Shown in pieces: positions 4,147 through 64,000 of a stretch of DNA of 64,000 bases (position 1 is the stretch's first letter; every line of letters begins with the position of its first letter). The DNA is taken from the IMG/VR virus record IMGVR_UViG_3300010352_001202; one strand, written 5' to 3'. Position numbers and translations under genes: made by a program. Under the pieces are notes generated by a model, which did no database searches, had not been told where the DNA came from, and saw nothing but the letters and a program-made list of their open reading frames with translations. The DNA is from a virus (Duplodnaviria > Caudoviricetes).

Positions 4147-5013
4147 ATGCAAAATTTCGTTGATTTATTACAAGATATTCTACAGAATGGTGTAGACAAG
4201 TCAGACAGGACAGGAATCGGCTCACGCGCCGTATTCGGCCGTCAACTTCGCTGGGATCTAAGCGAAGGGTTTCCAATTTTAACAACTCGTAAGGTTCCGT
4301 TGCGCATAGCTTTTGAAGAGACTATGTTCTTTCTTCGCGGCCATACACAAACAAAGTTGCTAGAAGAAAAGAAAATTAATATCTGGAAGGGTAATACCTC
4401 TAGAGAGTTTCTAGATAATCGCGGACTAAATTATTTGCCCGAAGGAGATATGGGTAAAGGGTACGGATATCAATGGAGACACTGGGAATCGCCGGATCGT
4501 CTGTATGCAGGTAAGACAAATGAAATAGATCAAATTAAAGATCTATTAGAAGGCATTAGAAAAGATCCATTTGGTAGACGGCATGTTGTTACTGGCTGGA
4601 ACCCGGGGCAATTGCACGAAATGGCATTACCGCCATGCCACATGTTACATATGTATTCGGTTGATCCATTAGGCAAACTGCATACTTCATTTGTAATGCG
4701 TAGTAACGATGTTCCTTTTGGATTACCGTTCAATATTATGAGTTATGCACTTCTAAATCATATTTTTGCAAAACACCTGGGACTTATCCCGGGAGATTTA
4801 ATTTATATGGGTCATGATGTTCATATCTATCAGAATCAAATGGATATGGTTAAGGAACAGCTCACAAGAACTCCTAAAGCATTGCCTACACTCAATATTA
4901 AGAAAGATTTACCTACGCTAGAGGCCATTATGGATCTGCAATGGGAAGATGTTGAACTGATTGGATATGATCCACATCCTGATATCGCTAACAAGCCGGA
5001 GATGGCAAAATGA
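4147..5013 (+). CDS. thyA: Thymidylate synthase
   Basis: DRTGIG, YGYQWR, MALPPCH, RSNDVPFGLPFN, DVHIY. Confidence 0.97.
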   Translation: MQNFVDLLQDILQNGVDKSDRTGIGSRAVFGRQLRWDLSEGFPILTTRKVPLRIAFEETMFFLRGHTQTKLLEEKKINIWKGNTSREFLDNRGLNYLPEGDMGKGYGYQWRHWESPDRLYAGKTNEIDQIKDLLEGIRKDPFGRRHVVTGWNPGQLHEMALPPCHMLHMYSVDPLGKLHTSFVMRSNDVPFGLPFNIMSYALLNHIFAKHLGLIPGDLIYMGHDVHIYQNQMDMVKEQLTRTPKALPTLNIKKDLPTLEAIMDLQWEDVELIGYDPHPDIANKPEMAK

Positions 5014-36933: not shown

Positions 36934-37869
36934 ATGAAACAGCTTTGGACTGAGCAATACCGACCTACCTCTATTAAAGACTATGTCTTTAAAGACGGAA
37001 AACAAAAGAGACAAATCGAGCAATGGATTTCTGGCGGAGCACTTCCGCATATGCTTTTATCTGGTGCTCCTGGCACAGGTAAAACAACCCTTGCTAAAGT
37101 TCTATTAAACGAACTAGGTGTTGATCCATTTGATATTAAAGAAGTGAACGCTTCTAAAGATAACAATGTAGACTTCATTCGTGATAGTATTACACGGTTT
37201 GCTGAAACAATGGGCGTAGGCGAAATCAAATATGTATTACTCGACGAGGCAGATTATCTAACTATTAATGCGCAGGCTGTATTGCGCAATACCATGGAAA
37301 GATATGCAAGCACGGTTAGATTTATTCTGACTTGCAATTATCCCCACAAGATTATTCCTGCGATTCAGTCACGCACTGAAACAGGGCGCATGGACATTAG
37401 CAAGCTAGACAAAGACGAGTTTACTCTGCGGCTTGTTAACATTTTAACACTGGAAAACATCGAGTTCGACATGGACATTGTCGACACTATGGTCCAGGCA
37501 GCTTACCCAGACCTGCGTAGGGGAATTAGCTTGATTCAGGCGAACTCCTTTAATGGTCAGCTTCAATTACCTGACAACAGCGAGACCGTTAGCGATTATA
37601 AGATCGATATGGTCGCTTTATTTAAAGCAGGCAAGTATAAAGAAGCACGACAGCTTATTTGTACACAAGTAGGCCAAGAAGAATACGAAGACATCTTTAA
37701 ATTCATGTATCAAAACCTTGAGATTTGGGGTGACGACGATGTTAAGGAAGGCAAGTGTATTCTTGCAATTAGAGATGGATTGGTAAAGCACACAAGTTGT
37801 GCGGATGTAGAAATTAACCTTTCAGCTACACTGTGCGAGCTGGAAATGATCGCAAAGGGCGTTTTATGA
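36934..37869 (+). CDS. Sliding-clamp loader AAA+ subunit (T4 gp44/RFC-small-like)
   Basis: LWTEQYRP, GAPGTGKTT, EVNAS, LDEAD, FILTCNY, IQSR, PDLR. Confidence 0.93.
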   Translation: MKQLWTEQYRPTSIKDYVFKDGKQKRQIEQWISGGALPHMLLSGAPGTGKTTLAKVLLNELGVDPFDIKEVNASKDNNVDFIRDSITRFAETMGVGEIKYVLLDEADYLTINAQAVLRNTMERYASTVRFILTCNYPHKIIPAIQSRTETGRMDISKLDKDEFTLRLVNILTLENIEFDMDIVDTMVQAAYPDLRRGISLIQANSFNGQLQLPDNSETVSDYKIDMVALFKAGKYKEARQLICTQVGQEEYEDIFKFMYQNLEIWGDDDVKEGKCILAIRDGLVKHTSCADVEINLSATLCELEMIAKGVL

Positions 37870-38225
37870 GCAAAGAAAAAGTATTCATCGTTTTATCACA
37901 CAAGCATAACCTTAAGAAGGGTACTCGTGATGAATGGGAAGTTACGGAAACTGTTGAGTTTGTAAACCAACTCCGTAATAAGCACACAACAATGTCCAGT
38001 GCCATCGGCGATTATTTGAATAGAAAGATGTTGTCGGGCTCCCGCGTAGGAATGGGCGATTACGAAAAGTTCGAAGAGTATATTCGTAAGAAGTATCCTA
38101 AGCAATTGGGAGAACTCGATGCAGCTTATCGTGAAAAACAAGTTGTCATTGAACAGCCGGTATCTGATCTTATTACAGATGAGTTTGGCAATCTGCGTCC
38201 CAGAACGGTTTTTGACACAGTATGA
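37866..38225 (+). CDS. Hypothetical protein
   Basis: ATGA overlap; FEEYIRKKYPKQ. Confidence 0.65.
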   Translation: MSKEKVFIVLSHKHNLKKGTRDEWEVTETVEFVNQLRNKHTTMSSAIGDYLNRKMLSGSRVGMGDYEKFEEYIRKKYPKQLGELDAAYREKQVVIEQPVSDLITDEFGNLRPRTVFDTV

Positions 38226-38824
38226 AACAAAAAATCATACTAACAGACGCCGATGGCGTTCTTGTAGACTGGAACAACGGATTCCGTAGATTTATGGAAT
38301 CCAAGGGCCATCCGCAATTACCGGACACCGATAATGATTATAGTATGGCTGTTCGACACGGAATTACAATTCCGCAAGCGCAGGCATACATTAAGGAATA
38401 CAACGAAGGACCGATGATTGCCGAACTCGATGCATTTGCTGATGCAATTAAAGGTGTTAAAGAATTAGCATCTTTAGGTTTCAGGTTCACTGTTGTTACG
38501 AGCATTAGCAGCCATCCGGATGCTAAGGTTTATAGAACACAAAACCTAAAGGCTTTATTCGGCGATGTGTTTGATGAGATCCATTGCATTGAAATGGGCG
38601 CAAGCAAAGCCCACATTCTGTTAAGCAACTGGGCCGGTACAGGATATTTCTGGATCGAGGATCATATGCGTCAGGCAGAAGCAGGATGGGAAGCAGGACT
38701 GAAAACTGTGCTGATTAATCATCCCTACAATGCACACTATAAGACTGATTTGTTTCCAAGGGTTAGTTACGAAACGCCCTGGGCAGAAATAGTTCAAATG
38801 GTTAAAAAAGAATATAACCTATAA
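38222..38824 (+). CDS. HAD-family 5'(3')-deoxyribonucleotidase-like (T4 gp30.2-like)
   Basis: ILTDADGVLVDW, VVTS, FWIED, HPYN. Confidence 0.85.
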   Translation: MKQKIILTDADGVLVDWNNGFRRFMESKGHPQLPDTDNDYSMAVRHGITIPQAQAYIKEYNEGPMIAELDAFADAIKGVKELASLGFRFTVVTSISSHPDAKVYRTQNLKALFGDVFDEIHCIEMGASKAHILLSNWAGTGYFWIEDHMRQAEAGWEAGLKTVLINHPYNAHYKTDLFPRVSYETPWAEIVQMVKKEYNL

Positions 38825-38826
38825 TC

Positions 38827-39321
38827 ATGGCAAAACCTTATGTGTATCGGTGTGAGCATAAGGAAACTAAGCGATTCTATATAGGATATAGAGAAGCCAA
38901 CCATTTTCCTGCATATTTAGATTTCGGAACACACTACTTTACAAGTTCTATTGAAGTTAGCAATAATTTCAAAGATTATACATACGAAATACTTGCAGAA
39001 TTCACTGAGCCAAAGACAGCATTTGAAATTGAGCAAATGCTTATATACAAATCAAGAAACAATCCATTGCTAATTAACCAGCATTGGAAAACAACTGTTG
39101 TATCTATCGATGAATTAAAAACTCTAAGATATTTTAAGGAACATGTAGTCAAATATAGTAAGGTTAATGGAAATCCTTACCTTGCCAGAAAGAAAAAGAA
39201 AAAGAAAAAACTGCGCATACTAACCGAGGCCGAAAGGTTAGGACGGTCTGATGCCGAATGGATGCAAAGAAGGAAAGAAAAAAGAATTAGAAGAGAGCAA
39301 AAGAAATTACTCTCTAAATAA
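38827..39321 (+). CDS. Small GIY-YIG-like nuclease with Lys/Arg-rich C-terminal tail
   Basis: PYVYR...FYIGYR, DFGTHYFTSS, AFEIEQMLI, NPLLIN; tail RKKKKKKKLR...RRKEKRIRREQKK. Confidence 0.7.
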   Translation: MAKPYVYRCEHKETKRFYIGYREANHFPAYLDFGTHYFTSSIEVSNNFKDYTYEILAEFTEPKTAFEIEQMLIYKSRNNPLLINQHWKTTVVSIDELKTLRYFKEHVVKYSKVNGNPYLARKKKKKKKLRILTEAERLGRSDAEWMQRRKEKRIRREQKKLLSK

Positions 39322-39325
39322 TTAT

Positions 39326-39810
39326 GAAGCTGTAAGGTTGGTGCGCCTAATTAAAATTGCACTGGCGCATAGCTCGGAATGGAGCTCGATGGTCAAGCCG
39401 AACTTTATTGGTACGGTTATCCCGTGGGCTTCCACGATTAGGGCATGGTGTTATCAGAGTACATAACTCTGATCATCAAAGTATGTGGAATCCACAGAAA
39501 TTAACACCAGATAAAAATAAGTTCGCTATCGGTATGTGAAAGAAAGGTATGGCCGATAGATTGCGTTACAAGCGACTGAAATGCGAGTAACATATGCAAT
39601 GACTCGAAAGAGCCCATCAACGATTTCCATATGGTTGCAGTTAGACATAATCAATCCGACACTGCGTAAAGTTGTTTTTCAGTCTGTGGCGATGCCTGTC
39701 AGGTGAGTTGAAATTCCAAATTTTTATTTGGGTGTTTTGACGATACCCTTTCTGTGGACTCCACCGTCAGGTACCAAATACTCTCATATTCCGCATTATG
39801 CCACATATGC
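39326..39810 (+). ncRNA. Putative large structured non-coding RNA (strand inferred)
   Basis: ~530-bp gap with no credible ORF; more than 12 nested helices and a pseudoknot GACTGAAA(39574)/TTTCAGTC(39677); GAAA tetraloop and G-U pairs favour the + strand. Confidence 0.7.
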
Positions 39811-39882: not shown

Positions 39883-40200
39883 ATGGCAGTCATGCAAACA
39901 GTCAAGGACAACCCAGGGAAACTTCTACTAGGATCAGCCGGATCAGTTATTGCTATTGTGACCGCATTATTTGCAGTAGATGCACGATACGCTCACGCAG
40001 CGGATGTTGAGAAGAACAAAGCGGAAACCCACATAATTATTAGAGAAACGACTGCCAATTTACGAAAGCAGATGCTTGAAGACAAACTATTCGAAATTGA
40101 TGTAAAAGAAGCACAAACAAAACTATCTCCTGTCGAGATGGCTATGAAAGAAAGATATAAGCGTCAAATAAAAGAAATAACAAGAGACAGCAGCAAATAA
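39883..40200 (+). CDS. Membrane-anchored coiled-coil late protein
   Basis: One N-terminal TM, VDARYAHA; AATAAATA at 39854. Confidence 0.7.
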   Translation: MAVMQTVKDNPGKLLLGSAGSVIAIVTALFAVDARYAHAADVEKNKAETHIIIRETTANLRKQMLEDKLFEIDVKEAQTKLSPVEMAMKERYKRQIKEITRDSSK

Positions 40201-40244: not shown

Positions 40245-41000
40245 TTAATCATCTTCCCCGTAAATCTCTAGAACTTCAGCAACAAGCGGATCACGCTCAA
40301 TGTGTTCGCGTTTGAACACACATACTGCCATTGATCTCTTATTGTTTAATGCTAGTCTTTCTAGAAAGTCCTTAAGTCCGTTTTTATCAAAGCCACGATC
40401 ATGTTGCTTTAAGTCACCAGTGATAACCATGCTACTATTCTCACCGATACGAGTTAATAGCATTTTGGTTTGGTCTGGTGTAGCATTTTGCATTTCGTCA
40501 GCAATGATGTACGAGTTCTTAAATGTTCTACCACGCATGAAGCCTAATGGTGCAATTTCAATTGAACCTTCTTCTAGCATACGCTTTGTTTCTTGTAATC
40601 CATAATATTCTTCGAACACGTCAAAAATAGGTCTTGTCCAAGGTTCCATTTTCGCATTCAAATCGCCTGGTAAAAATCCGTGCTTCTCGTCTACGCTAAC
40701 AGCTGGTCTTGTTAGAATAATTTTAGTAATTTCCCCTTCTCTTAGTGCCTTGATTGCTCGCAGAACTGCTAGTAATGTCTTGCCTGTACCTGCAGGTCCT
40801 ACTGCAAATACCATGCGTTTTTCTAGCAATTGTTCTACATAATTTTCCTGTGCTGTATTACGAGGGATCATCTCAACTCTCTTGTAATTTCTATTTCCCA
40901 ACTTGACTACATTAGTAGTCTGCTGATCATCATGCTGATATTGGCGTGGTGAACGAGATTGTGGCGAAGACTTAGCCGCCATTTTGCGATTTTTGCTCAA
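40245..41000 (-). CDS. phoH: PhoH family ATPase
   Basis: GPAGTGKT, ILTRPAV, GFLPGDL, FMRGRTF, ADEMQN, ITGDLKQHD; probable TTG start at 41000 with SD AAGGAG. Confidence 0.95.
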   Translation of the reverse strand: MSKNRKMAAKSSPQSRSPRQYQHDDQQTTNVVKLGNRNYKRVEMIPRNTAQENYVEQLLEKRMVFAVGPAGTGKTLLAVLRAIKALREGEITKIILTRPAVSVDEKHGFLPGDLNAKMEPWTRPIFDVFEEYYGLQETKRMLEEGSIEIAPLGFMRGRTFKNSYIIADEMQNATPDQTKMLLTRIGENSSMVITGDLKQHDRGFDKNGLKDFLERLALNNKRSMAVCVFKREHIERDPLVAEVLEIYGEDD

Positions 41001-41206
41001 GGTTATGCTCCTTACTGAGTTGTTTTTTTGGTGTGATGGATTGCTGAACAGGAATTGTTCATCCGGAGGAACGACGATAGATCTATCGCGTGTATTTGTC
41101 ATACCAGATATTTATGTGATTGCGATAATATTGTACTGGAAAGGCGGGTCTTTCAAAACTTTAGAAATCTTATTGAATACTGATAAATAATCAAAACGAG
41201 GTGAGA

Positions 41207-61855: not shown

Positions 61856-64000
61856 TGTATGTAGACTGCCTCTTCAAACGTGGCGGTGATAGTGAAGTAA
61901 TCAAGGTTGTAGAAAGAGTAAACGGTAAACGAGTTTACCGTGAATTTCAGCCTGACTATCACTTCTTCATGAACGATCCACGCGGATCGCACAAATCCAT
62001 CTATGGCGACACAGTAAAGAAAGTGGTTCCACGATCTTTTACTGAAAAGCAAAAATTGGTAAAATCAATGTCGGGTAACGTAAAGAAATGGGAAACAGAC
62101 GTTGATCCCATTTTTCGTTGCCTTGAACAAAACTATCAGCATATTGATGCACCACATCTAAATATTGCATTTTTCGATATTGAAACCAGCTTTGATAAGG
62201 AATCAGGCTGGTCAGAAGCATCCGACGCAGATAACTTTATTACCTCTATTTCTATTCATCTACAATGGTTAGATGAAATCATTTGTTTGGCACTTCCACC
62301 AGAGACGCTTACGTGGGATGAGGCACAGGCTATTGCGGATGAAGTGGGTAATGTTGTATTGTTCAAGTCAGAAGGCGAAATGCTTCAGGCATTTATGGAT
62401 GTTGTAGAAGACGCAGACGTTCTTAGTGGTTGGAATAGTGAAGCATATGATATCCCGTACGTGGTAAATCGTATCAAGAAAGTCTTAGGTAAACACGAAG
62501 CAAGGAAACTATGCTTGTGGGAACAAGAGCCAAAGGTTAGAGAGTTTGATCGTGGTGGAAAAGTTCAAAACACATACGACTTGATTGGAAGGGTACACGT
62601 AGATTACCTCCAGCTTTACAAGAAATACAACTACGAAGAACGTCACTCCTATGCGCTGAATGCTATTGCAGAAATTGAGCTTGGTGAAAACAAGGTCCAG
62701 TACGAGGGAACACTGGACGAGTTGTACAACGATGACTTTAAGAAGTTCTTAGAGTACAACATTCAAGATACACGATTACTTGATAGATTAGATAAGAAGC
62801 TTGATTTTATTAGCCTGGCAAACTCTATTGCGCATTCCAGTTGCGTGTTAATTCAAACAACAATGGGTGCGGTAGCGGTAACTGACCAAAACGTACTAAT
62901 GGAAGCACACAGTAGAAATATGGTGTGTCCAGACAAGAAGCATAGCAAAGACGAAACGTCTACAAGAGCAGCAGGCGGCTGGGTTGCAACACCCAAAAAG
63001 GGATTTCATAAGTGGATCGCATCTACTGACATGAAGTCGCTATATCCATCTGTCATTAGAACGTTCAACATGAGTCCTGAAATGATTGTAGGGCAGATTA
63101 GACTTGATAGAACAAATCAAGCAATCAAAGATTGGGAAGCTAAGGGAGCGAAATATACATTTGCATCTTGGTGGAACGATAGATTCAATGTGCTCGAAAT
63201 GGAAGATTTTTACAATCAGGATATTGGCAACAAGCTTATTCTTGATATGGAAGATGGGCAATCATTTGAAGTTACAGGTAAGGAGCTATATGAACTAATT
63301 TTCAATAGTGGCCAACCTTGGTGTATTAGTGCAAACGGCACAATCTTCAAGACAGATACAGACGGTGTGATTCCGGGTCTATTAACTCGCTGGTACAGTG
63401 AGCGTAAGACACTACAGGCAATCATGACAAACTATCAAGACATCGAAGATAATGCTAAAATCGAAGGTATACAAATACCCGAAAGTTTGTTTACTAATGC
63501 AGATATTAGTGATGTTGAGACAAAGGCTAATCCCTATCTCGAATCTGAGGCATATAAGCCGAAAAAGCTAAAGGAACTAATTACAGAAGGGCATAAAAAG
63601 CGTGTTGTTCAGTACATGAATCAACACAACCTTATGGTTAAGGACGGTAAAGCTATCCACAGGGATCAGAAGGACCTAAAGCGTATTATCGGATTCTGGG
63701 ATAAACGCCAGCTGGTAAAGAAGATCAACCTGAACTCTGCATATGGCGCTTTGTTGAATGCAGGTAGCAGATTCTTCGATCAAAGATTAGGACAATCGAC
63801 TACATTGTCTGGTAGAACTATTACCAAGCACATGGCAGCTAAAACAAACGAAATGATGACGGGGGAATATGATCATTACGGTAAAGCCATCGTCTACGGG
63901 GACACCGATTCCTGCTATTTCTCTGCGTACCCTATTCTTAGAGAAGAAATCGAGCGTGGAGAAGTTGAGTGGACAAAGGAAAGTATTATTGAAACTTACA
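61855..64000 (+). CDS. Family B DNA polymerase (T4 gp43-like), truncated at window end
   Basis: Not in ORF track; TAATG start MYVDCLFKR; exonuclease FFDIET, GWNSEAYDIPY; polymerase STDMKSLYPS, KINLNSAYG, VYGDTDS. Confidence 0.95.
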   Translation, partial: MYVDCLFKRGGDSEVIKVVERVNGKRVYREFQPDYHFFMNDPRGSHKSIYGDTVKKVVPRSFTEKQKLVKSMSGNVKKWETDVDPIFRCLEQNYQHIDAPHLNIAFFDIETSFDKESGWSEASDADNFITSISIHLQWLDEIICLALPPETLTWDEAQAIADEVGNVVLFKSEGEMLQAFMDVVEDADVLSGWNSEAYDIPYVVNRIKKVLGKHEARKLCLWEQEPKVREFDRGGKVQNTYDLIGRVHVDYLQLYKKYNYEERHSYALNAIAEIELGENKVQYEGTLDELYNDDFKKFLEYNIQDTRLLDRLDKKLDFISLANSIAHSSCVLIQTTMGAVAVTDQNVLMEAHSRNMVCPDKKHSKDETSTRAAGGWVATPKKGFHKWIASTDMKSLYPSVIRTFNMSPEMIVGQIRLDRTNQAIKDWEAKGAKYTFASWWNDRFNVLEMEDFYNQDIGNKLILDMEDGQSFEVTGKELYELIFNSGQPWCISANGTIFKTDTDGVIPGLLTRWYSERKTLQAIMTNYQDIEDNAKIEGIQIPESLFTNADISDVETKANPYLESEAYKPKKLKELITEGHKKRVVQYMNQHNLMVKDGKAIHRDQKDLKRIIGFWDKRQLVKKINLNSAYGALLNAGSRFFDQRLGQSTTLSGRTITKHMAAKTNEMMTGEYDHYGKAIVYGDTDSCYFSAYPILREEIERGEVEWTKESIIETY

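What the first reader, a model, noticed from the sequence alone, without database searches (positions are those of the whole stretch)
38827..39810. Small GIY-YIG-like nuclease with a basic tail followed directly by a ~480-nt pseudoknotted RNA: candidate ribonucleoprotein system
Seen: the largest non-coding gap in the window starts at the nuclease stop and is full of helices. These are TGCGCC 39342/GGCGCA 39364; AGCTC 39371/GAGCT 39382; long-range GATGG 39388/CCATC 39614; CGAACTT 39399/AAGTTCG 39519 enclosing CGTGG/CCACG and TGGTGTTA 39446/TAACACCA 39502 (with ATCAGAGT/ACTCTGAT and TGTGG/CCACA inside); CTATCGGT 39526/GCCGATAG 39552; ATTGC-GTTAC 39560/GTAAC-GCAAT, whose loop GACTGAAA 39574 is complementary to TTTCAGTC 39677 (pseudoknot); CTC-GAAA-GAG; GCAGT/ACTGC; TGTGGC 39685/GCCACA 39800; and a second long-range option TTGGTAC 39408/GTACCAA 39771. 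CTAAATAA (late-promoter-like) overlaps the nuclease stop. The 164-aa protein has no NUMOD DNA-binding modules but has a poly-Lys/Arg tail. I could not match the RNA by eye to tmRNA, RNase P or a group I/II intron core. Inference: a new large phage ncRNA, possibly bound by the nuclease (analogous in layout to HEARO/omega-RNA partners), or a ribozyme or origin-associated RNA.
Basis: partly seen in the sequence, partly recalled or inferred. Interest (0 to 1): 0.9.

Follow-up and report, generated by a model that had tools for sequence, protein, structure and literature searches.

The report
New jumbo-phage RNA beside homing nuclease
The gene-free stretch holds a real, intricately folded RNA of about 450 bases that belongs to an uncatalogued family shared by dozens of uncultured giant phages. 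The small nuclease gene in front of it looks like a selfish mobile gene that repeatedly lands next to the RNA, not an obligatory partner.

Summary
Window 39331-39776 (+ strand) encodes a structured RNA. I found 50 or more distinct homologues in uncultured jumbo-phage and metagenome contigs. Over 44 sequences, 56 base pairs in 13 helices are 95% paired (76% in shuffles). A second pseudoknot lies at the 5' end. Rfam 15, 50,697 deposited phage genomes and 185,579 prokaryote genomes hold nothing like it.

The family has two paralogous types. One follows the endolysin gene. The window's type follows the HAD phosphatase gene. One complete 385-kb phage carries both.

The 164-aa ORF is a GIY-YIG nuclease by motifs and predicted fold. 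Every orthologue I examined sits between HAD and this RNA, and ORF and RNA share a history that HAD does not. But complete genomes carry the RNA with no homologue of the ORF. The ORF is AT-rich, patchily distributed, and has paralogues elsewhere with other tails. My best reading is a free-standing homing endonuclease that has colonised the HAD/RNA junction. An RNA-nuclease particle is unlikely but not excluded. The RNA's function is unknown.

This scan already noted the same family on other DNA (e1-5374376).

The parts
38222..38824 (+). HAD / 5'-nucleotidase-like gene (200 aa), the conserved upstream anchor of the locus
   Evidence: Weak Pfam NT5C hit; phrog_420 E 1.8e-33. Orthologues precede the RNA, or ORF plus RNA, in related contigs.
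38827..39321 (+). 164-aa GIY-YIG-type nuclease ORF: an N-terminal catalytic domain of about 88 aa plus a variable Lys/Arg-rich tail. Probably a free-standing homing endonuclease.
   Evidence: phrog_314 'homing endonuclease' E 3.7e-6. 28 homologues with invariant Y18, G20, R22, E69, N84 and nearly invariant Y5, Y7, I19. AF2 pLDDT 83.6; top Foldseek hits are the I-TevI catalytic domain, PD-T4-3 and UvrC GIY-YIG. GC is 33.5% against 41.6% for the window.
39331..39776 (+). Structured non-coding RNA ('type B' member of a new jumbo-phage RNA family). The true 5' end may lie a few bases upstream, near 39328.
   Evidence: nhmmer homologues. Alignments A4 and A6. Covariation statistics. G-U pairs fit the + strand only.
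39335..39363 (+). 5' pseudoknot: P0 AGG(U) 39335 / (G)CCU 39345, with its loop GGUGC 39340 pairing to GCACU 39359 (P1)
   Evidence: P0 G-C pairs hold in 42 of 44 sequences, with GG/CC changing to AA/UU in L149. P1 has 4 of 5 pairs with compensatory change.
39364..39394 (+). P2 stem-loop: GGC / GUC closing stem, A-U, then AGCUC / GAGCU, with loop GGAAUGG
   Evidence: 98-99% paired, and all 8 pairs of the two stem segments have compensatory changes.
39398..39443 (+). P2a and P3 hairpins
   Evidence: The same two hairpins fold in nearly all 14 type B sequences (L174 lacks P2a) despite different sequences. P3 covaries in A4.
39446..39509 (+). P4 three-way domain: outer stem plus hairpins P4a and P4b
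   Evidence: The same topology folds in all 14 type B sequences, with many compensatory stem sequences.
39526..39559 (+). P5 stem (7 bp) closing a 20-nt loop with invariant GGUAUG
   Evidence: 99.7% paired, and 7 of 7 pairs are compensatory.
39560..39600 (+). P6 two-part stem. Its loop GACUGAAA (39574-39581) is the 5' strand of the pseudoknot.
39603..39612 (+). P7 hairpin CUC-GAAA-GAG
   Evidence: 99% paired, and 3 of 3 pairs are compensatory.
39618..39674 (+). Three-way junction P8 / P8a / P9. The P9 loop carries the invariant GACAUAAUCAAUCC.
   Evidence: P8 is 100% paired with 4 of 4 pairs compensatory. P9 is 97% paired. The loop is invariant in 44 sequences.
39677..39684 (+). 3' strand of the pseudoknot, UUUCAGUC, pairing with 39574-39581
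   Evidence: The 5 core pairs are 97% paired and all 5 have compensatory changes, for example CGUUGAA/UUCAACG and GUUAUA/UAUAAC.
39685..39771 (+). 3' domain: direct repeat DR1 (39685-39703), hairpin P10 (39702-39747) closing on invariant AUACCCUU, and direct repeat DR2 (39752-39771)
   Evidence: P10 folds in all 14 type B sequences. DR1 and DR2 change in parallel across homologues.
39883..40200 (+). 105-aa membrane-protein gene. It is not part of the element: it is present without the RNA in relatives and absent from most RNA-bearing loci.
40245..41102 (-). PhoH-like ATPase gene, convergent. It is the downstream anchor of the locus.
   Evidence: Pfam PhoH E 5e-71; synteny.

Best explanation
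Two separate things lie side by side.

(1) The RNA. Positions 39331-39776 encode a stable, multi-domain, doubly pseudoknotted non-coding RNA of a previously uncatalogued family. The family is confined, as far as searched, to uncultured jumbo phages of about 360-390 kb that are distantly related to Pseudomonas phage PA5oct. It has two paralogous types. Type A lies after the GH108 endolysin gene. Type B, the window's type, lies after the HAD gene and is convergent with phoH. Both types sit at the end of a rightward transcription unit. I infer that the RNA acts in trans. Its invariant single-stranded elements would be the working surfaces for a conserved partner or for its own tertiary or quaternary fold. 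Those elements are the 18-nt P9 loop, the GGUAUG loop of P5, AUACCCUU, and two equivalent direct repeats.

(2) The ORF. The 164-aa ORF is a free-standing GIY-YIG homing endonuclease that has inserted exactly between the HAD stop codon and the 5' end of the RNA gene. I infer that it cuts the ORF-less allele at or near this junction. Repair would then copy the ORF together with the neighbouring RNA gene. That would explain why ORF and RNA are always adjacent and share a history.

Shown here: the RNA family, its structure and strand, the distribution of the ORF, and the ORF's fold. Inferred: transcription, trans action, nuclease activity and homing.
For: RNA family and structure:
- nhmmer gave 71 hits and 48 distinct sequences, plus 5 more distinct loci.
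- On 44 sequences, 56 pairs in 13 helices are 95.1% paired against 76.3% in shuffles. 49 pairs have compensatory changes. The covariation score is 0.570 against 0.208, with 0 of 500 shuffles reaching it. Slid controls score 0.06-0.11.
- Predominantly G-U pairs at several positions fit only the + strand.
- Variable domains fold to the same topology in all 14 type B sequences.

No known relative:
- No Rfam hit at gathering score or at E<=10 for either type.
- No tRNA or tmRNA.
- No match in 50,697 phage records or in PA5oct.
- The two pattern matches in prokaryote genomes were chance.

Paralogues:
- The 385-kb contig carries both types (L004 and L016).

ORF as a GIY-YIG nuclease:
- Conserved GIY-YIG residues and structural hits to I-TevI, PD-T4-3 and UvrC.
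- phrog_314 match.

ORF as a mobile gene:
- GC is 33.5% against about 42% in the neighbours.
- Complete genomes G002 (type B RNA) and G003 (type A RNA) have no homologue. G001 and G004 carry N-domain paralogues in longer ORFs far from any RNA copy.
- None of the type A loci has the ORF.
- ORF-bearing loci are scattered over the HAD tree among RNA-only and empty loci.
- Between the window and L191 the RNA is 86% identical in nucleotides and the ORF N-domain 83% in amino acids, while HAD, gp62 and clamp loader are 63-64%. That is the mosaic pattern expected of homing with co-conversion.
- Other upstream neighbours of the RNA include an APS-kinase-like gene (L004), an unrelated gene (L144), or HAD directly (L131, L175, L170, L149).
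Against: There are no expression data, so the transcript, its ends and its stability are inferred.

No promoter or terminator was identified.

The ORF has no recognisable DNA-binding module. No target site is known.

All six distinct orthologue loci have the RNA immediately downstream. ORF and RNA similarity rank the same way across those loci. A functional ORF-RNA link would also predict both of these.

Structural matches to GIY-YIG domains are weak in E-value (0.05-1.7).

The function of the RNA is not established by anything here.
Confidence: 0.7

Rival explanations
1. ORF and RNA form a functional ribonucleoprotein. The basic-tailed GIY-YIG nuclease would bind the RNA, as scaffold or guide, and the pair would move as one mobile module.
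For: All six distinct orthologue loci have the RNA 6-130 nt downstream. ORF and RNA similarity rank alike and disagree with HAD and clamp loader. The ORF has no recognised DNA-binding domain, and its tail is Lys/Arg-rich.
Against: Complete genomes carry the RNA with no homologue of the ORF (G002, G003). At least five type B loci have HAD, or another gene, directly before the RNA. None of the type A loci has the ORF. Both RNA ends are conserved, so there is no guide-like variable segment. The tail is the least conserved part of the protein. N-domain paralogues with other tails lie elsewhere, as in homing-endonuclease families. Physical linkage alone explains the shared history.
Confidence: 0.08
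2. The RNA is a cis-acting element of its own transcription unit. It could be a leader controlling the downstream 105-aa gene, or a 3' UTR or processing and stability element of the HAD operon.
For: It always lies at the 3' end of a co-oriented unit. In the window it lies about 100 nt upstream of the 105-aa gene.
Against: The 105-aa gene is absent from most type B loci, and relatives have that gene without the RNA. Type A lies between convergent genes. About 450 nt with two pseudoknots and invariant loops kept across phages whose proteins are 50-65% identical is far more than a terminator or stabiliser needs. No terminator follows it.
Confidence: 0.12
3. It is a DNA-level element, such as a replication origin, a packaging site or a recombination hotspot, and not an RNA.
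For: It lies in the replication-gene module, and homing endonucleases cluster here.
Against: The compensatory changes preserve pairing on one strand only. Positions that are mostly G-U would be A-C on the other strand. A hairpin-loop pseudoknot with covariation is not expected of duplex DNA.
Confidence: 0.03

Closest known systems
GOLLD (Rfam RF01998) and ROOL (RF03087): large ornate RNAs of phages and prophages
   Same: Both are large (over 400 nt) multi-helix RNAs with pseudoknots and conserved loops. Both are carried by phages and have no known function. Both stand as independent non-coding genes rather than leaders.
   Different: There is no covariance-model match even at E<=10. This RNA is not next to tRNA genes: none were found in the window. 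It has a different helix layout. It is found in uncultured jumbo phages of about 360-390 kb, with two paralogues in at least one complete genome. Self-assembly into cages, shown for GOLLD and ROOL (bioRxiv 10.1101/2024.12.08.627333, abstract), is untested here.
Free-standing GIY-YIG homing endonucleases of T4-like phages (Seg proteins) and the I-TevI catalytic domain (PDB 1mk0, 1ln0)
   Same: The GIY-YIG residues and fold match. The gene is small and AT-rich, is inserted between conserved genes, and is patchily distributed among relatives. There are several paralogues per genome with different C-terminal parts. The flanks are mosaic.
   Different: There is no Pfam PF01541 match and no NUMOD, IENR1 or helix-turn-helix DNA-binding module. 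The tail is short and basic. The insertion site abuts an RNA gene rather than lying between two protein genes. Cleavage and homing are not shown.
HEARO / IscB omega-RNA and TnpB omega-RNA systems (RNA-guided nucleases with an adjacent structured RNA)
   Same: The layout is alike: a small nuclease gene next to a large structured RNA, and the pair travels together.
   Different: The nuclease is GIY-YIG, not RuvC/HNH. The RNA exists without the nuclease in complete genomes. No variable guide end is present. There is no Rfam HEARO hit.

Membership tests
GIY-YIG nuclease superfamily | Catalytic motif residues: GIY Tyr, YIG Tyr-x-Gly, Arg, Glu, Asn | tested here: met
   Across 28 homologues Y18, G20, R22, E69 and N84 are invariant and Y5, Y7 and I19 nearly so.
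GIY-YIG nuclease superfamily | GIY-YIG alpha/beta fold | tested here: met
   AF2 model pLDDT 83.6. The best meaningful Foldseek hits are all GIY-YIG: I-TevI 1mk0 (prob 0.97, E 0.05, TM 0.56 by target), PD-T4-3 9u75, and UvrC 1yd3. E-values are weak.
GIY-YIG nuclease superfamily | Match to a curated profile (Pfam PF01541 or relatives) | tested here: not met
   No Pfam GIY-YIG hit at E<=0.1. Only phrog_314 'homing endonuclease' matches, at E 3.7e-6.
Free-standing homing endonuclease | Sporadic presence at one fixed intergenic site among related genomes | tested here: met
   Six distinct loci are HAD-ORF-RNA. At least five are HAD-RNA or have another gene before the RNA. Presence is scattered on the HAD tree. 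Two complete genomes have no homologue.
Free-standing homing endonuclease | Separate sequence-specific DNA-binding domain | tested here: not met
   No NUMOD, IENR1 or HTH is detected. The C-terminal part is a variable basic region with a predicted long helix.
Free-standing homing endonuclease | Site-specific cleavage of the ORF-less allele and gene conversion | not testable with these tools
   Only indirect evidence: the ORF plus RNA block is more conserved than the genes upstream of it.
RNA-guided nuclease with omega-RNA (HEARO/IscB, TnpB) | The RNA always accompanies the nuclease gene, and the reverse | tested here: not met
   The RNA is present in complete genomes without any homologue of the ORF. 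Type A copies never have it.
RNA-guided nuclease with omega-RNA (HEARO/IscB, TnpB) | Variable guide segment at one end of a conserved scaffold | tested here: not met
   Both the 5' end (AAGGUU...) and the 3' end (...CCGUCA) are conserved across homologues.
GOLLD / ROOL / OLE / raiA and all other Rfam 15 families | Covariance-model match | tested here: not met
   No hit at gathering score over the whole window. None at E<=10 on the region. None at E<=5 on ten homologous loci.
Group I intron | Interrupts a gene, with flanking exons that join into one frame or RNA | tested here: not met
   Both flanking ORFs are complete and are conserved without the element in relatives. No Rfam intron hit.
Large ornate phage RNAs (the kind, not a family) | Over 400 nt, many conserved helices, pseudoknots, phage-borne, stand-alone | tested here: met
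   About 446 nt, at least 14 helices, two covarying pseudoknots, and 50 or more phage or metagenome homologues.

The most novel reading that the evidence does not exclude
The RNA is the founding member of a new class of large functional phage RNA: a ribozyme or a self-assembling or protein-organising particle. Some of these jumbo phages keep two diverged paralogues, one in the replication-gene module and one in the lysis/baseplate module. A GIY-YIG homing endonuclease uses the gene's conserved sequence as its landing site, or less likely the RNA itself as a cofactor.
Probability: 0.3. Interest if true: 0.85.

Novelty: new variant of a known kind. Interest (0 to 1): 0.68.

Why it matters
Large, highly structured RNAs with conserved tertiary features are rare. 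The known classes have repeatedly turned out to be ribozymes, riboswitches or, recently, RNA-only cages. This family has enough diverse members for a solid consensus structure, and it is small enough (about 370-450 nt) for in-vitro folding and cryo-EM. It sits in a clade of giant phages that, by earlier notes of this scan which I did not check, carries several other uncatalogued RNAs. The nuclease gene next to it also offers a testable case of a homing endonuclease that targets a non-coding RNA gene. Through its mosaic flanks, it offers a natural marker for gene flow among uncultured jumbo phages.

Tried and rejected
- Rfam at gathering and permissive thresholds found nothing, on the window and on ten homologous loci.
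- ARAGORN found no tRNA or tmRNA.
- BLASTN of both RNA types against deposited phages gave no match. The PA5oct genome has no match to the invariant 14-mer, even with 2 mismatches.
- The pattern scan of prokaryote genomes gave two matches. nhmmer showed both to be chance. Seven of the 42 metagenome pattern matches were also chance.
- The held 184-kb genome fragment has no second copy of the family.
- The T4-type late promoter idea was rejected: TATAAATA is not enriched.
- A 3' hairpin CUGAC/GUCAG and a mini-hairpin UGAC/GUCA in the direct repeats were rejected, because variants are not compensated.
- A long-range pairing GGUAU/AUACC between the P5 loop and the 3' domain is possible. Both strands are invariant, so it cannot be tested.
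- By eye and from memory, AUACCCUUGGUCUGACUCC resembles the 16S rRNA 790-loop region. This is untested and is not used in the argument.
- A full-length covariance model was not built, because the alignment exceeds the 400-column limit. nhmmer profiles and per-sequence folds were used instead.
- The apparent 818-nt ORF-free stretch at 62222-63039 is coding. It lies in a 715-aa ORF that runs off the window.

Full report
**Where the window comes from.** The window is part of a 184-kb fragment of an uncultured virus (CheckV completeness 48%). Its clamp loader is 52% identical to that of Pseudomonas jumbo phage PA5oct. The local gene order on the + strand is co-chaperonin-like, clamp loader (36934-37869), gp62-like, HAD/5'-nucleotidase-like (38222-38824), the 164-aa ORF (38827-39321), a 561-nt gap, and a 105-aa membrane protein (39883-40200). 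A convergent PhoH gene follows (40245-41102). The gap is the largest stretch without an ORF of 80 aa or more. An apparently larger one at 62222-63039 lies inside an ORF that runs off the window.

**Is the RNA real?** Single-sequence folding is only mildly better than shuffles (z = -2.6 and -2.5 on the two strands). The answer therefore rests on homologues.

- The 105-aa protein led to seven related contigs. Only one of them, a 385-kb phage (L004), has a homologue of the gap, at the same place (nhmmer E 6e-31). The others go from HAD to the 105-aa gene in 45 nt. PA5oct goes from HAD straight to PhoH.
- The two copies share perfectly conserved blocks interrupted by indels that are not multiples of three. 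The conserved thing is therefore not a protein.
- Scanning public viral and metagenome contigs with an invariant block, then with a two-block pattern, and confirming with an nhmmer profile gave 71 hits and 48 distinct sequences.
- Five further distinct loci came from the neighbourhoods of ORF homologues.

**Structure.**

- On a 44-sequence alignment (A4), a model of 56 pairs in 13 helices is 95.1% paired against 76.3% in column shuffles. Compensatory double changes occur at 49 pairs. The covariation score is 0.570 against 0.208 (0 of 500 shuffles), and 0.06-0.11 when partners are slid by 1-3 columns.
- Several pairs are predominantly G-U, which fits only the + strand.
All five core pairs show compensatory changes, for example CGUUGAA/UUCAACG and GUUAUA/UAUAAC.
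- I found a second pseudoknot at the 5' end. AGG/CCU (39335/39345) encloses GGUGC, which pairs with GCACU at 39359.
- MAFFT misaligns the variable domains, so I folded them sequence by sequence. All 14 type B sequences give the same topology for the P3 hairpin, the P4 three-way domain, P6, the P8/P8a/P9 junction and the long P10 hairpin, and all but L174 also form P2a, with very different stem sequences.
- Three blocks are invariant in all 44 sequences: GGUAUG in the 20-nt P5 loop, GACAUAAUCAAUCC in the P9 loop, and AUACCCUU closing P10.

**An unexplained feature.** Two direct repeats flank P10, at 39685-39703 and 39752-39771, both ending in C(C/U)GUCAG. Across homologues they change in parallel, not in complement. 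Examples are CGGUGAUG in both, CUGGCA/CCGGCA, and CUCCCAAAG/CACCCAAAG. No third covarying strand was found. I read them as two equivalent sites for one partner, but this is a guess.

**What the RNA is not.**

- No Rfam 15 family matches the window or ten homologous loci, even at permissive thresholds.
- There is no tRNA or tmRNA.
- Neither type matches any of 50,697 deposited phage genomes.
- The pattern scan of 185,579 prokaryote genomes gave only two chance matches.
- Literature searches for large phage RNAs returned GOLLD, ROOL, OLE and raiA work, and nothing describing this family.

**Two paralogous types.** Type A has a core of about 370-390 nt plus a further conserved 5' region. It lies after a GH108 endolysin gene and is convergent with an unknown 190-aa gene and a baseplate-hub gene. 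Type B is about 450 nt, with extra hairpins in the 5' half. It lies after HAD and is convergent with PhoH. The 105-aa gene is present between the RNA and PhoH only in the window, L004 and L191. The complete 385-kb genome has both types (L004 and L016). The held fragment of the window's own genome has only the type B copy.

**The ORF.** It has no Pfam hit but matches phrog_314, 'homing endonuclease'.

- 28 homologues share an N-terminal domain of about 88 residues with the GIY-YIG residues invariant or nearly so. The C-terminal part is basic and poorly conserved.
- An AlphaFold model (pLDDT 83.6) has as its best meaningful matches the I-TevI catalytic domain, the GIY-YIG restriction enzyme PD-T4-3 and UvrC's GIY-YIG domain. 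E-values are weak.
- I accept it as a GIY-YIG nuclease.

**Are ORF and RNA partners?**

For a link:
- Every orthologue whose neighbourhood I read sits 2-14 nt after the HAD stop and is followed at once by a type B RNA. These are the window, L161, L191, L192, L194 and L195, with protein identities of 54-73%.
- ORF and RNA similarity to the window rank alike (L191, then L161 and L192, then L194 and L195). HAD and clamp loader rank differently.
- L192 and L195 have a HAD gene of a different clade, yet their RNA is close to that of L161.

Against an obligatory link:
- The complete 364-kb genome G002 has a type B RNA directly after HAD and no homologue of the ORF anywhere. Complete G003 (type A) also has none.
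- G001 and G004 have N-domain paralogues in longer ORFs far from any RNA copy.
- None of the type A loci has the ORF.
- Other genes can occupy the slot: an APS-kinase-like gene in L004 and an unrelated gene in L144.
- The ORF is AT-rich: 33.5% GC against about 42% in its neighbours.
- ORF-bearing loci are scattered over the HAD tree.
- The RNA has no variable, guide-like end.
- This neighbourhood holds other homing-endonuclease-like genes in relatives: a NUMOD3 protein in L192/L193 and HNH-motif ORFs in L004 seen by eye.

**Conclusion on the pair.** The pattern fits a free-standing homing endonuclease with one fixed insertion site at the HAD/RNA junction. Double-strand-break repair would co-convert the adjacent RNA gene. 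That explains both the strict adjacency and the shared, mosaic history: the window and L191 have 86% RNA identity and 83% N-domain identity, but 63-64% in the three upstream proteins. I put this at about 0.7. A true ribonucleoprotein gets about 0.08, a cis-regulatory or 3'-UTR role about 0.12, and a DNA-level element about 0.03.

**Function of the RNA.** It is not determined. What can be said:
- It is under strong selection for an intricate fold.
- It is independent of every neighbouring gene.
- It sits at the end of a co-oriented unit in both genomic contexts.
- It exists as two diverged copies in at least one complete genome.
- It presents invariant loops and two equivalent repeats. These look like binding surfaces or tertiary or quaternary contacts.

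I therefore favour a trans-acting, stably folded RNA of the ornate kind (GOLLD/ROOL-like in kind, not in family). Whether it is catalytic, self-assembling or protein-binding needs experiments.

**Relation to earlier notes of this scan.** Note e1-5374376 described, in another genome of about 365 kb, a pseudoknotted RNA after the endolysin gene with a second copy elsewhere. My independent search agrees with that. It adds that the second copy is the HAD-linked type B studied here, and that a GIY-YIG gene often sits in front of it. Note e1-5641452 reports a post-endolysin RNA in this same genome. That region is not in the 184-kb record I could search, so I did not test it.

Noticed in passing
L025:3538-3770, L082, L016, L099 and others (upstream of type A cores): Type A copies have a further conserved region 130-200 nt upstream of the core (GAUAGCGGGACUGACGCGCCCCGUGAACGUA...). 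A C/A-rich linker follows it. The type A RNA is therefore probably about 600 nt. Type B lacks this part.
   Followed up: partly
window 39685-39703 and 39752-39771: Two direct repeats flanking hairpin P10 vary in parallel across 44 homologues, and no complementary third strand was found. This is unexplained. They may be two equivalent binding sites.
   Followed up: partly
window 39376 and 39381 (P2 loop; A4 columns 210 and 215): Two loop positions covary as A..A versus G..G (AGAAUAG versus GGAAUGG). This hints at a non-Watson-Crick or tertiary contact.
   Followed up: no
L004:1032-1769 and L004:5372-5974; L192:5132-5707: Relatives carry other homing-endonuclease-like ORFs in the same neighbourhood. 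L004 has a 245-aa ORF between clamp loader and gp62-like and a 200-aa ORF with an HNH-like HHIVPK motif beside PhoH. L192 and L193 have a NUMOD3 protein. The region looks like a hotspot for such genes. Only the NUMOD3 hit comes from a tool.
   Followed up: partly
L003:4001-4306 and 4348-4524: The 105-aa membrane-protein gene appears tandemly duplicated in one relative (tblastn).
   Followed up: no
window 15946-16119: Another note of this scan calls this a tRNA-Ile-like RNA with a giant D-loop. ARAGORN finds no tRNA anywhere in the window, and Rfam finds nothing at gathering score.
   Followed up: partly
same genome, outside the window: Earlier notes of the scan list several other large uncatalogued RNAs in this phage: after tRNA-Val, after tRNA-Pro, after rIIB, and one released by a hammerhead. 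None resembles the present family in the 184-kb record (nhmmer --max).
   Followed up: partly
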